Assembly (NCBI GenBank): GCA_951406725.2 | Contig: OX597824.1 | Span: forward strand, 92,504,001-92,568,000 | Direction of reading: 5' to 3' | DNA length: 64,000 nucleotides | From: Octopus vulgaris | Lineage: Eukaryota | In this document: piece after piece, positions 1 to 61,249 of the stretch | Layout of the letters: each line of letters starts with the position of its first letter | Position numbering within the stretch: the stretch's first letter is position 1 | Program-made: the position numbers and the translations under genes | The notes under the pieces: generated by a model | What the model was told of the DNA's origin: nothing | The model's database searches: none | Seen by the model: only the letters and a program-made list of their open reading frames with translations

Positions 1-175
1 CAACAACAGGGAGGACGTGGAACAAATATAATATTATTGGACGCTCAGAAAAGAAGGAAAGAAGGAGGGTTTAACGTTTCGAGAGAAGCTCTTCGTCGGA
101 AACATAGAAAAAGGAAAGATCCAGAGAAGAGAAGACAGAGGAAAAAAATCGCCAACGGTACAGACGCGGTCACAT
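1..175 (-). mobile_element. ~200-bp non-coding HHR-bearing repeat (family H1), copy 1, cut by window edge
   Basis: Reverse complement of 46359-46567 and 61048-61249. Minus strand reads GTTT-CCGACGA-A-GAGC..TCTC-GAAACGTT-AAAC (HHR core with U4C). Abuts (TA)n. Confidence 0.85.
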
Positions 176-197
176 TTATATATATATATATATTACT

Positions 198-1146
<949 letters not shown>

Positions 1147-3049: not shown

Positions 3050-3345
3050 TATGACTTTGATAACTTTTATAGGTTTCGACCAGTAGAGGCACAGGTCATG
3101 ACTAACTTAATAGCACCACCTGGTGAAGTCTTTTCGTCATATATAGGGCACCAAGCCCTACTCTAACAAAGAGTTATTATTTTAGGAGACATATCCGGGT
3201 GTAGGAAGTTGGTCCGAGATTTTTTGAAGAAAATTGTCCAGTGAACTTTTGAATTTTATGGGATCCGTTTGCGTTTTGACGTATTTTGGTATGGTATTAA
3301 AAAGGTCTGGACCGGTTGAGGTACAGTAATTGCGATGCCAAACGC
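3050..3345 (-). mobile_element. 3' end of CR1/L2-type LINE (RT C-terminus + 3'UTR)
   Basis: GPDLFNTIPKYVK...FKSSLDNFLQKISDQLPTPGY is a typical CR1/L2 C-terminal signature. Related to the peptide at 19612-19790. Confidence 0.65.
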
Positions 3346-4656
3346 ACACAAAGAAACACACACAGCAATACATATGTATGTATAAATATATGTGTTTATC
3401 TGTATATGTATATATAAATACGGAGATGTACTTGCATAGCAAGTGAGCTGATCTAGGATACAGCACAGAATTTTGTCAGTGAACAGGTCGCCGTCTGAAG
3501 GTGACGAAAATATTTTAACAAATTAAATTTAAATGTTGAAGTGAATCTAACGGATTTTGTGTGTTTCTTAAATGTGTTATAAACACCTTCCACGCTGCAA
3601 TTTTTTATATATATAATAGACATTAGAAAACAAAATAGAATGGACATTGGTGCTGTTTCAGAGTTCGGCTAACGGTAACGATGCTGGTTTTCACAGATTG
3701 TAATTGCGTGAAAATGAATTTAAAGATCATCATAAACATAAGCTTCACGAGATTAACAGCACTAGCCCTATCAAGAACGGTTACATGTAAAACAGAAATA
3801 AAAAGTGGGTTTGCAAAGGGACACAAAAGATCACTGAAATTATATTTCTGGCTCTTCTTCAGAGCGTTAGACGAGAAGGGAGATTCTACAAACATAATTA
3901 AGTTTACGAAGTATATTATGTAAAGACGTTTGTTCCAAACTCGTGAATCAAGATAGCCCATGCTATAGCGTTCATGATTGACCCTTAGCGCCTGTAACAC
4001 AGTTACAACGGTGGAAATTCTAGGTGCTCACATACCGTGACGTCGCGTAAGTGGTGCGGGTTTCTACACGGTGGTTTGACTGGAACAATAGCGCGGAATA
4101 TTGGTATTAAAACACTGATAAATACATATAAGATTTTTGCTTGTTTTGTAGCATAATGATAATGAAGAAATTGTATATGTTGTTACGACAGACTCGCTTT
4201 TAATCCCTGTCAGATTTCGGCACAAATAGTTCGGGTGAGAATACACAGGATCAAGTGGCGCCAAGCAGATCAGGGTTCGAAAGGTTAAAGGGTTTTCAAA
4301 TCCGCTTGATGTAGGAAAAGACAAGTACCATAATATTGCCATTAGCTTGGTTTTAGTAGAATTCTTTTAATGCAAGAAATCTCTTATCGAACCAAGGATT
4401 CTCGTAACTTCCCACACAGATCAATCAACGGAGAAGAAAAAAAGAAAAAGAAAAGGAATTAATTAACTATTGAAGGCGTTCGGTCGCATTCATTCGTTAC
4501 AAGTACCATTACTTTCTTTCTTTTTATTTTTGTTTTGGAATAATGAAATATACGAAAACCAAATTCAAAACTGGAATTATTTCTTGGTCATGAAGATTCA
4601 CACAAAATGTAATCTGGCAGTGAAAAAAAATTTCGAGCAGGAAAGCAGCACTTAGC

Positions 4657-32706: not shown

Positions 32707-33010
32707 TGTTTTGAAGAGGTCAGATGAAAAAATCAATCCAATTACACATTTTTTTTGGTTCTTGGTGGGGGAGGGGAATCCGGTTCTTATTGTATCGATA
32801 GTTTTGTAGAATCGCTAAATTATCGGGTAGATATACAAACAAACTGTAGTTGTTAAAGAGTTGCGGGGAGACAAACACACACACACACACATACACGCAC
32901 CCAAACATATATACATATCTATAGCTATATCCAGCTACATCTATATTTATCAATCTATCTATCTCTCCGTCTCTCTATCTATCTATCTATCTATCTGTAT
33001 GTATATATAT

Positions 33011-33599
33011 AAAATTGTCAAGAAGGCCGAGGGTGTCTTGGCATCACTCAGCAAGACTTTTGTTAGCCGCTCTCCAGCCATCTATTTAAAACTGTATACA
33101 GCTATGGTACGACCACACTTGGAATTTGCATCATCAGTTTGGAATCCCTATCTTGCTCAGAACATTGACCTCCTGGAATCTGTCCAGAGACGTGCAACCA
33201 AACGCATACCCTCCATCAGACACCTACCATATTCTGAGCGCCTTGTTTCCCTGGGCATGGATTCACTGAAGCTCCGGCGTCTGGCGACGGACTTGGTAAA
33301 CACACACAAGGTTATCAACCACCTCACCAACAACAACACTGAACACCTTTTTGATCTCCATGTGTCTAACACACGTGGACATGCCTACAAAGTCAGAAAA
33401 CAACACAGCTCCCATGACTTTCGGAAACATTTTTTCACGCTCAGAGTTGCTGAAGCATGGAATAAACTGCCTGCGTCAGTTGTTGACTGCCATGACACTG
33501 CATCCTTTAAGGCCCTCATGCTTTCCGAAATCCGCCGAAACTACACCTGATTATATATACACTTTAGATGAGTTGTAGTGCACCTGAGCACTGTACACA

Positions 33600-44110: not shown

Positions 44111-44114
<4 letters not shown>

Positions 44115-44300
44115 AGTGTTAACGAAAAAAAACAAAGGACGAAGACAGGTGGTGTACAAAACAAACAGATGTATTAGTATAACGCTCAGGAATAGACAAA
44201 GTCTTTTACGTTTCGAGCCTACGCTCTTCTACAGAAAGGGACACAAAAAAACAACGAGGAGAGGAACAAGGAGTGGAAAAATATGTGTAGTGGCTATCCA
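44111..44300 (-). mobile_element. ~190-bp HHR-like repeat related to family H1
   Basis: Minus 44238-44203: CTTT-CTGTAGA-A-GAGC(GTAG)GCTC-GAAA-CG-TA^AAAG. Downstream TTCCTGAGCGT..TAATAC shared with H1. 3' end abuts (TA)n. Confidence 0.7.
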
Positions 44301-45815: not shown

Positions 45816-45820
45816 AGACT

Positions 45821-46138
45821 TGGAGGCGCAATGGCCCAGTGGTTAGGGCAGCGGACTCGCGATCGAAGGATCGCAGTTTCGATCCCCAGACTGGGCGCTG
45901 TGTGTGTTTATTGAGCAAAAGCACCAATAAGTCCCACGAGGTTCCGACAGGGGTTGGTAGCGACCCCTGTTGTACTCTTTCGCCCCAAATTTCTCTCTCA
46001 CTCTTTCTTCCTGTTTCTTGAGTAACGCTGCGATGGACTGGCGTCCCGTCCGGCTGGCGGGGAACACATGCGCCACAGAAATCGGGAAACCGGGCCCATG
46101 AAACTGGCTAAGCTTGAAAAGGGTGCATAAATAAATAC
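45821..46138 (+). mobile_element. Full-length SINE family A (short-tail subfamily) with 12-bp TSD
   Basis: TSD ATATATGAGACT at 45809-45820 and 46139-46150. Confidence 0.95.
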
Positions 46139-46358
46139 ATATATGAGACTCAGCTGCTACAGAAGGATTGAGTAAGACATTTATTTTTGCTCCGATTTAC
46201 CATCGCCGCTTTTCCATTTACCATGCACCCAATTTTTCTGCCACCGATTTGGGGCTCCCACTGTCATATACAGTGATGAAATAATCTGTGCGTATGTTTG
46301 CACGTGAATGTGGCTGGGAGAATACTTACACACACACGTATGTATACATATATTCAAA

Positions 46359-46567
46359 ATGTGACCGCGTGTGTACCGTTGGCGATTTTTTTCCTCCGTC
46401 TTCCCTTCTCTGGATCTTTCTTTTTCCTTTGTTTCTGACGAAGAGCTCCGCTCGAAACGTTAAACCCTCCTTCTTCCCTTCTTTCTTGAGCGTCCAATAA
46501 TACTATATTTGTTCCACGCCCTCGCGTTGTTGTGTTTTCTCTTTGTGTTTTCATGTTTGGATTAACT
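46359..46567 (+). mobile_element. Family H1 element, copy 2
   Basis: ATGTGACCGCGT...TTTGGATTAACT+(TA)n. Same termini as 61048-61249. Confidence 0.9.
46431..46465 (+). ncRNA. Minimal type I hammerhead ribozyme, intact core
   Basis: GTTT-CTGACGA-A-GAGC(TCC)GCTC-GAAA-CG-TT^AAAC. Palindromic AACGTT in place of stem III. Confidence 0.75.
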
Positions 46568-46823
46568 TTATTTATATATATATATATATATGTAACTTTT
46601 ACCGTTTACCTGCTTCATGCATTAGAGTGCGGTATTTCTGGCGCAAAGCCTTGTGAAATTTTACTCGAAAGAACCGACCCAAGTGCCTATTATTCTTGAA
46701 GTTTTAGTGCCTATTCAATCTCGGCCTCTTCTGTCAAAACGCTCGGATAAGGTAATGCAAACACACCAACACACAAAGCTTTGGCAGGGTTGGGGAAGGA
46801 GCTTGTGAAATAACTACAATATA

Positions 46824-48832: not shown

Positions 48833-49788
48833 GTAGTTTCGCCAATGTCATTTTTGCGATGTGTGGTCTGGCGTTGTCTTGCAACAAAATAGGAGTAGAT
48901 CTATTGACTATCTAGGCTGTTTTCTGTAAGTTTCTGCATCATTGGTTCCAGTTGACTACAGTATCCTTCGGACGTGATTGATGAACGAGGTTTAATGAAA
49001 TCATAATAGATCACACCTGCGTCAGACCACCGAACGCACACCATCAGCTTGTCTTGATGAATTTTGCTTTTTACACTGTGTTTTGATTGCTCGTCTTTGT
49101 CCAACCACTGTGCTGAATGTTTACAGTTGTTGTATTGGATCTATTTCTCATCACGTTACAATTCGATTAAAAAATTATTCAATTTTGTGACGAGAAAGTA
49201 GCATAATGCAGGCTTCCAAACGCTGTTGCTTCTGATATTCCTTGATTTCATGTGGAACCCATTTATCCAACCTTTTCCCTTTACCGATTTGAACTAGTTG
49301 AGTCAATAATGTTTGCTTGGTAACACCAAGCAACAACGATAATTCACGGACATTTTGAAATGGATCTGACTCAACGGTGGCTTTCATTTCGTCAGTATCC
49401 ACCTTTGTTTCTGGTCGACCGCGATGCTCATTTGTGAGGTCAGTGTTACTAGAACGAATTTTTGCAAACCACTTTGATACTGTCTGCTGTGTAAAAACAT
49501 GAGAATGAAATACTCCATTAATATTCCGAGCTGTCTGTGATGCTGTATTTCCAAGAAAGAACTCATATTTCAAAACTGCACGAATTTCCAACAGCCATCT
49601 CTAAACAAAAATAGCAAAGAACGATTTATAAATACTTTATAATGCGCAAAATGAGTTAGAATAAAGAAATAGATGTGTCAGCTTTCTAACAAATAATAAA
49701 GTTTGTCAAAATATAATAATGGCGCAAAATGAGCAGCAGTCAAATTTTACCATATAAATTACTACGTATTTCATACTTGACGACCTTA
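48833..49788 (-). pseudogene. Defective mariner (Tc1/mariner, DD34D-type) transposon, 3'-truncated
   Basis: EIRAVLKYEF..HTH..GRP..KWVPHEI; RIVT-DEK*I.Y.N; KLMVCVRWS..GVIYYDF; PILLQDNARPH. Frameshifts and stops. 5' ITR TAAGGTCGTCAAGTATGAAATACG next to TA (49789-49790). Confidence 0.95.
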
Positions 49789-61047: not shown

Positions 61048-61051
<4 letters not shown>

Positions 61052-61249
61052 GACCACGTGTGTACCGTTGGCGATTTGTTTTCCTCTGTCTTCCCTTCTC
61101 TGGATCTTTCCTTCTCCTATGTTTCCGACGAAGAGCTCCGCTCAAAACGTTAAACCCTCCTTTTTTCCTGAGCACCCAATAATACTATATTTGTTCTACA
61201 TCCTCGCGTTTTTGTGGGTTTTTTTTGTGCTTTCATATTTGGATTAACT
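61048..61249 (+). mobile_element. Family H1 element, copy 3 (HHR core mutated)
   Basis: GTTT-CCGACGA-A-GAGC(TCC)GCTC-AAAA-CGTT-AAAC. (TA)n on both sides. Confidence 0.9.

What the first reader, a model, noticed from the sequence alone, without database searches (positions are those of the whole stretch)
46359..46567. Fixed-length ~200-bp repeat (3 copies in 64 kb) built around a minimal, dimer-type hammerhead
Seen: copies at 1-175 (minus, partial), 46359-46567 and 61048-61249 share the same 5' end (ATGTGACCRCGT), and the two complete copies share the same 3' end (GGATTAACT+(TA)n). There is no tRNA head, TIR or ORF. Copy 2 has an intact core; copies 1 and 3 share a U4C change (CCGACGA), implying a variant subfamily that spread. 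Known: HHRs whose stem III is reduced to a palindrome (AACGUU) are proposed to cleave as dimers. Inference: a high-copy non-autonomous Penelope-dependent element that targets (TA)n.
Basis: partly seen in the sequence, partly recalled or inferred. Interest (0 to 1): 0.75.

Follow-up and report, generated by a model that had tools for sequence, protein, structure and literature searches.

The report
Penelope-type hammerhead solo terminal repeat
This is a real, scattered 200-letter repeat carrying the small self-cutting RNA motif already known from the ends of Penelope-like jumping genes; its one twist is that about half of the family carries a change that weakens the cutting site.

Summary
Confirmed: three copies (46359-46567, 61048-61249, 175-1 minus; 86-91% identical), one shared 5' end, 3' ends at (TA)n. 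Copy 2 holds a complete minimal type I hammerhead (0 of 30 shuffled windows give one) that fits the published Penelope-like element (PLE) min-HHR consensus. A fourth, divergent relative (44234 minus) has a compensated stem I. In 16 of 97 metagenome loci sharing this core and stem II, PLE protein sequence lies upstream. In public contigs the repeat has thousands of variants; U4C is 46-47% of depth, so it is a subfamily. Corrections: copy 3 also has G12A; within the family the ribozyme is not detectably more conserved than the rest (p 0.73); no tandem copy exists in the window, so dimer cleavage has no local partner. No PLE ORF was found nearby and no genome was available, so a non-autonomous master (my lean) cannot be told from short products of an autonomous PLE. 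Raw reads of two runs barely covered the repeat (unexplained). Verdict: new member of a known kind.

The parts
46359..46567 (+). Copy 2, complete 209-bp solo repeat with intact minimal hammerhead
46431..46465 (+). Minimal type I hammerhead: stem I 46431-34/46462-65, core CUGANGA 46435-41, extra A 46442, stem II 46443-46/46450-53 with 3-nt loop, GAAA 46454-57, palindromic stem III 46457-60, H17 = U 46461, predicted cut 46461/46462
   Evidence: compared with the consensus
46567..46592 (+). AT-rich 3' flank with (TA)n run starting 6 nt after the end
61048..61249 (+). Copy 3, complete, U4C plus G12A (core 61125-61151), 8-nt deletion, (TA)n on both sides with a 12-nt low-complexity direct repeat that may be a target duplication
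1..175 (-). Copy 1, cut by the window edge, U4C, stem II reduced to 3 bp; 5' end at (TA)n
44112..44290 (-). Copy 4, divergent sister family (5' limit uncertain): hammerhead 44238-44203 with compensated stem I end pair, 4-nt loop II, H17 = A, core change A6U; 3' end at (TA)n
   Evidence: (nhmmer E 0.001)

Best explanation
The repeat is the terminal repeat (pseudo-LTR) of a Penelope-like retroelement, probably Neptune-type, that now spreads on its own as an ORF-less, SINE-like unit. A master copy is transcribed (promoter not identified; not Pol III), the RT/GIY-YIG protein of a partner PLE nicks AT-rich/(TA)n DNA and copies the uncleaved RNA from a fixed start about 105 nt 3' of the ribozyme site to a fixed stop about 100 nt 5' of it. 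The hammerhead is inherited from the PLE; the insert spans the cut site, cleavage is not needed for insertion, and the weakening U4C lineage could therefore reach about half of the family. Dispersed single copies are unlikely to cleave unless helped by the PLE protein or a second molecule. Shown: motif, boundaries, TA association, variant shares, same motif 3' of PLE ORFs in other animals. Inferred: partner, autonomy, transcription, mechanism. PLE origin as such I put at about 0.9.
For: Motif fits the metazoan PLE min-HHR consensus. Same core and stem II lie downstream of PLE coding sequence in 16 of 97 loci: L052 GIY-YIG end 100 nt upstream (Pfam E 0.0018, below the curated cut-off), L019 RT (RVT_1 E 5e-8) plus endonuclease region, both with a cysteine linker of the Neptune/Nematis type (PMC8557442 passages). 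Stem I, not part of the search pattern, pairs 2 bp or more in 18 of 29 distinct arm pairs versus 9.7 shuffled (p 0.0002). Same 5' end in 3 of 3 copies; no RT/GIY-YIG Pfam hit in 150 of 151 ORF pieces around the copies; tblastn of 3 PLE protein pieces against the window best E 0.5. 23,880 and 5,696 contigs laid, depth only on the repeat, U4C 45.7% and 46.8%. PAc study: RT starts at fixed internal sites, AT-rich targets, ribozyme mutants still insert, ribozyme is protein-assisted (PMC11167929). U4C lowers activity in vitro but supports viroid infectivity (PMC3088659).
Against: No partner PLE or master found; genome not held. Fixed 5' ends are not diagnostic: in the ORF-bearing comparison family 37 of 49 non-redundant copies also stop within -9..+1 of the core. 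Only 3 copies give both boundary facts. Raw DNA runs X21 and X22 laid only 2 and 17 of 12.9 million reads each, which does not show high copy number (filter or another organism, unresolved). Summed contig depth is not a copy number. None of 90 comparison loci has (TA)4+ after the motif, so TA targeting is not a property of this motif class. The active fold is weak: stem II 0.06 and stem I about 0.015 pairing probability in the full repeat.
Confidence: 0.5

Rival explanations
1. The copies are short products of an autonomous PLE: solo pseudo-LTRs made when RT starts just 3' of the first pLTR and runs off the RNA 5' end, or stops at a truncation hot spot. No separate non-autonomous master exists.
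For: Most min-HHRs in animal genomes are single and were judged probably truncated PLEs (PMC4209133); solo pLTRs of about 190-220 bp are described in Adineta (PMC3846280); internal RT initiation near the RNA 5' end; clustered 5' ends in an ORF-bearing family, 37 of 49.
Against: No ORF remnant upstream of any of 4 copies, whereas 16 of 97 comparison loci keep one; no 5' loose end at the boundary among the 12 best-supported loose ends (239 not shown, rows at repeats dropped).
Confidence: 0.33
2. A non-LTR retrozyme: tandem master arrays give multimeric RNA that cleaves as double hammerheads, circularises, and seeds dispersed monomers.
For: Palindromic stem III allows a double-hammerhead fold (-5.7 kcal/mol for the dimer versus -3.8 for the open monomer); one contig in run X11 (RNA is only a guess) joins the 3' part back to 46369, depth 9.8 (table 5c); retrozyme monomers are dispersed in Xenopus and many families match pLTRs (bioRxiv 10.64898/2026.07.22.740005).
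Against: 0 of 4 copies in the window is tandem; the joint is one low-depth contig, not listed for X1; the cofold minimum-energy structure is not the double hammerhead; described animal retrozymes mostly carry canonical hammerheads; U4C at about half of depth.
Confidence: 0.12
3. A solo LTR, MITE or tRNA-type SINE that happens to contain a hammerhead-like string.
For: Fixed length and ends; the neighbouring 289-bp direct repeat starts and ends with similar few bases.
Against: No TIR, no TG..CA ends, no tRNA or A/B box, early T7 run; motif absent from 30 of 30 shuffles, compensated in copy 4 and tied to PLE ORFs elsewhere.
Confidence: 0.04

Closest known systems
Minimal hammerheads (min-HHR) in pLTRs of metazoan Penelope-like elements (Cervera and de la Pena 2014, PMC4209133; dimer cleavage also in Lunse et al., seen only as cited in PMC6765202)
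   Same: Type I, CUGANGA plus one extra base, G10.1-C11.1, GAAA, palindromic C-G stem III, U at H17 as in several listed families, short stem I, U-rich 5' flank, mostly single dispersed copies
   Different: Stem II only 4 bp with a 3-nt loop; both ends fixed; about half of the family has U4C, a core not seen in the rows of their alignment that I read (part 2 of 3 of supplement file 2); no linked ORF found
Non-LTR retrozymes and their dispersed monomers (PMC7229834; bioRxiv 10.64898/2026.07.22.740005)
   Same: ORF-less, a few hundred bp, type I hammerhead, proposed PLE derivatives
   Different: Defined by tandem units and circular RNAs; here only monomers are seen and the ribozyme is the minimal form
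Neptune-clade PLEs; Naiads; non-autonomous Chlamys elements such as MRC1 (PMC8557442)
   Same: Microsatellite, (TA)n, insertion bias; non-autonomous pLTR-forming derivatives exist
   Different: Naiads and most Chlamys lack canonical hammerheads; two short motifs of this repeat were not found in that paper's supplement; clade of the partner is inferred only
Schistosoma hammerhead SINE-like repeats (as reviewed in PMC6765202)
   Same: Short ORF-less interspersed repeat with a hammerhead
   Different: Those are Pol III-transcribed and often tandem; here no Pol III boxes

Membership tests
Metazoan PLE min-HHR | CUGANGA core plus one unpaired base before stem II, G10.1-C11.1, GAAA, NUH site | tested here: met
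   Copy 2, versus consensus; copies 1, 3, 4 carry core changes
Metazoan PLE min-HHR | Stem III reduced to a palindrome; short stem I | tested here: met
   4-nt palindrome and 4-bp stem I in copies 2, 3 and 4; both intact in copy 1 by alignment
Metazoan PLE min-HHR | Stems supported by covariation | tested here: met
   Stem I end pair compensated in copy 4; C-to-U at 46465 (12%, 8%) keeps a G-U pair; 18 of 29 arm pairs in other animals, p 0.0002
Metazoan PLE min-HHR | Lies in a pLTR flanking an RT/GIY-YIG ORF | tested here: inconclusive
   No ORF near 4 of 4 window copies; 16 of 97 loci with the same core and stem II in other animals have one, but share no homology with this repeat beyond the motif; genome not held
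Metazoan PLE min-HHR | Self-cleavage, weak, as dimer or protein-assisted | not testable with these tools
   No raw RNA reads laid; contigs cannot show ends
Non-LTR retrozyme | Two or more tandem units each with a hammerhead | tested here: not met
   0 of 4 copies tandem in the window; one tail-to-head contig joint; rest of genome unseen
Non-LTR retrozyme | No coding capacity, unit of a few hundred bp | tested here: met
   209 bp, no Pfam hit in frames over it
Non-LTR retrozyme | Monomeric linear and circular RNAs | not testable with these tools
   No raw RNA run was listed
tRNA-derived SINE | tRNA-like head with A and B boxes | tested here: not met
Naiad PLE | (TA)n insertion bias | tested here: met
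   5 of 6 ends within 6 nt of a (TA)4+ run; 7.9% of the window lies in or within 5 nt of such runs
Naiad PLE | Lack of a canonical hammerhead | tested here: not met
MITE / solo LTR | Terminal inverted repeats or TG..CA ends | tested here: not met
   Sequence ends; self-comparison

The most novel reading that the evidence does not exclude
A very abundant, ORF-less, Pol III-independent SINE analogue made only of a PLE pseudo-LTR, with two co-amplified lineages of about equal size that differ at ribozyme position 4 (U versus C). It would be a natural in vivo experiment on the open question of whether PLE hammerheads matter for transposition, with U4C either a tolerated loss or a change that relieves a misfold (in copy 2 the U4-C7-G8 segment pairs with the stem III palindrome, -7.7 kcal/mol, and stem I forms only in the U4C copy 3 fold).
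Probability: 0.3. Interest if true: 0.5.

Novelty: new member of a known kind. Interest (0 to 1): 0.27.

Why it matters
Mostly for annotation: such pieces are easily filed as unclassified SINEs or unknown repeats while they mark a Penelope-like lineage. The U4C half of the family offers a cheap test of whether ribozyme cleavage is needed for PLE-driven copying, a question left open in print (PMC8557442; PMC11167929 found it unnecessary in vitro).

Tried and rejected
No genome held, so no direct copy count, boundary census or partner search. Rfam: no hammerhead family among the 150 of 327 rows shown for the window or the 2 rows for the repeat. The repeat finder was swamped by microsatellites. 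Exact 24-nt motif: 0 hits in viral and metagenome contigs; looser motif 0 in viral contigs. No RNA holder listed; run X11 is RNA only by guess. Raw reads X21/X22 gave 2 and 17 laid reads and no molecule ends. Global fold of the repeat is not unusual (z -0.79). Pfam on 12, 150 of 151, and 124 of the remaining 303 ORF pieces found only a mariner remnant. Literature: full-text search for the 20-nt motif 0 papers; two motifs absent from the supplements of PMC8557442 and PMC13282606 (the latter holds no consensus library); no listed paper combined U4C with Penelope or retrozyme (15 of 21 rows seen); searches listed no paper on this family. Lunse et al. (PMC5785218) not held; file 1 of the PMC4209133 supplement not searched; bioRxiv supplements closed; Repbase/Dfam not available, so the family may already be in a library. 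PMC3376415, PMC8967140 and PMC12602865 passages added nothing decisive. My first reading of the 289-bp neighbour as an inverted repeat was wrong (direct). Earlier notes by sequence and place: none.

Full report
Observation. The repeat is real. blastn and nhmmer find 46359-46567, 61048-61249 (85.7%) and 175-1 on the minus strand (90.9%, cut by the edge), plus a weak fourth hit at 44165-44242 minus (E 0.001). The three close copies start at the same base and the two complete ones end at the same base. Five of six ends tested lie within 6 nt of a (TA)4+ run, while 7.9% of the window lies in or within 5 nt of such runs; the exception is the 5' end of copy 2; copy 3 has a 12-nt low-complexity direct repeat on both sides that may be a target duplication. 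Targeting and later TA growth cannot be told apart here. The window is AT-rich, microsatellite-rich animal-type DNA; it looks like octopus DNA to me, which is recall and was not tested.

The ribozyme. A descriptor scan finds one perfect minimal type I hammerhead in the window, at 46431-46465, and none in each of 30 shuffles: 4-bp stem I, CUGANGA, one extra A, 4-bp stem II closed by G10.1-C11.1, GAAA, a 4-nt palindromic stem III, H17 = U. This matches the consensus for metazoan PLE min-HHRs (PMC4209133: main text parts 1-2 of 4; supplement file 2 part 2 of 3). Copy 1 has U4C and a broken stem II pair; copy 3 has U4C and G12A; copy 4 has A6U, a compensated stem I end pair, a 4-nt loop II and H17 = A. 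Against copy 4 the ribozyme is the best kept part (28 of 35, versus 34 of 72 upstream and 24 of 51 at the 3' end). The active fold is weak in isolation (pairing probabilities 0.06 and about 0.015 for stems II and I); Rfam does not call it.

Family size and variants. No genome was held. Twenty-one of 24 listed runs, from 11 studies and 4 organism labels, hold words of the stretch. Laying 4 of these 24 runs: 23,880 contigs of X1 and 5,696 of X11 fit, with depth only over 46340-46560 and none on the flanks. This shows many variants but is not a copy number. The raw-read runs X21 and X22 gave only 2 and 17 of 12.9 million reads, which I cannot explain (the tool's human-likeness filter or a different organism under the label) and which counts against a firm high-copy claim. 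U4C makes up 45.7% and 46.8% of depth. Other core changes are low and CpG-like (G8A 4.3/1.1%, C11.1U 3.0/1.0%, G12A under 3%), similar to CpG decay outside (4.8-8.8% in X1). Sites polymorphic at 10-90% in X1: 2 of 35 inside the ribozyme, 9 of 106 outside, p 0.73, so no within-family excess conservation. Of the two inside, one keeps a G-U pair and the other is U4C, described as lowering activity in vitro while allowing viroid infectivity (PMC3088659 passages). One X11 contig of depth 9.8 joins the 3' part back to 46369; no such joint is listed for X1.

Link to PLEs. A looser motif (core plus the same stem II) gave 97 metagenome loci that share nothing with our repeat beyond the motif; I take them for animal host DNA. 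L019 has RT (RVT_1 E 5e-8) and an endonuclease region upstream, L052 a GIY-YIG end (E 0.0018, under the cut-off) 100 nt upstream, both with a cysteine linker of the kind given for Neptune/Nematis, which was hypothesised to drive microsatellite bias (PMC8557442 passages). With these 3 pieces tblastn hits 16 of 97 loci, upstream and in the motif's orientation, but nothing in the window (best E 0.5). Stem I, not in the pattern, pairs in 18 of 29 distinct arm pairs versus 9.7 expected. None of 90 of these loci is followed by (TA)4+, and 37 of 49 non-redundant copies of the largest family stop within -9..+1 of the core (several beside an inverted copy), so clustered 5' ends also occur in ORF-bearing families. 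Pfam found no RT or GIY-YIG in 150 of 151 ORF pieces around our copies, nor in 124 of the other 303.

Mechanism. Shown: motif, ends, variants, PLE association of the motif class. From print: a purified PLE protein cuts AT-rich DNA, starts reverse transcription at fixed internal RNA sites, uses uncleaved RNA, inserts ribozyme mutants equally well, and assists the ribozyme (PMC11167929 parts 1-2 of 4). Inferred: the repeat is a solo pseudo-LTR copied by such a protein; since each insert spans the cut site, cleavage is not required and U4C could spread. Whether the template is an ORF-less master (0.5) or the autonomous element's own RNA (0.33) is open; a tandem/circular retrozyme cycle (0.12) has one contig in its favour. 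The dimer model is the standard proposal for this motif class (PMC6765202 section 11 part 2), but no window copy has a tandem partner.

Known or new. Single dispersed min-HHRs judged truncated PLEs, solo pLTRs (PMC3846280 passages), retrozyme monomers related to pLTRs (bioRxiv 10.64898/2026.07.22.740005 parts 1-3 of 5; PMC7229834 passages) and non-autonomous Chlamys elements are all described; Penelope-like repeats are 6.83% of one octopus genome (PMC13282606 passages and supplement search). I found no paper on this family or on a U4C PLE subfamily, but repeat libraries and several supplements were out of reach. Three earlier AI notes on other genomes reach the same class verdict; they are not independent support. 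Verdict: new member of a known kind, interest 0.27.

Noticed in passing
window 261-1031: 771-bp ORF-less element in the same TA tract as copy 1: 289-bp direct repeats (261-549, 743-1031; 1 difference) around a 193-bp spacer, (TA)n on both outer sides, no hammerhead by my descriptor, no obvious primer site or polypurine tract by eye. Read on the minus strand its first and last few bases resemble those of the 209-bp repeat, without other homology. Looks like a young non-autonomous partial tandem.
   Followed up: partly
window 191-200 and 1143-1153: The same 10-nt AT-rich word closes the TA tracts on either side of the 771-bp element in inverted orientation.
   Followed up: no
window 46393-46409 and 46466-46482: A 17-nt pyrimidine-rich direct repeat (16 of 17) flanks the hammerhead on both sides inside the element.
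   Followed up: no
runs X1 versus X11: CpG decay is 2 to 6 times lower in X11 than in X1 at core and non-core sites alike, while U4C is equal; younger copies may be enriched in X11 (RNA only by guess).
   Followed up: no
window 48904-49600 minus: Mariner transposase remnant (PF17906, PF01359).
   Followed up: no
window 45820-46135: SINE-like repeat with 5 more hits in the window; tRNA-like head by eye, not called by ARAGORN.
   Followed up: no
window 32831-33550 plus; 3182-3475 minus: Frames resembling the C-terminal part of a LINE ORF2 (recall; no Pfam hit).
   Followed up: no
L008, L013, L015, L047, L065 and others: In the largest comparison family the motif is often preceded directly by an inverted copy of itself, and 5' ends pile up at the ribozyme.
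   Followed up: partly
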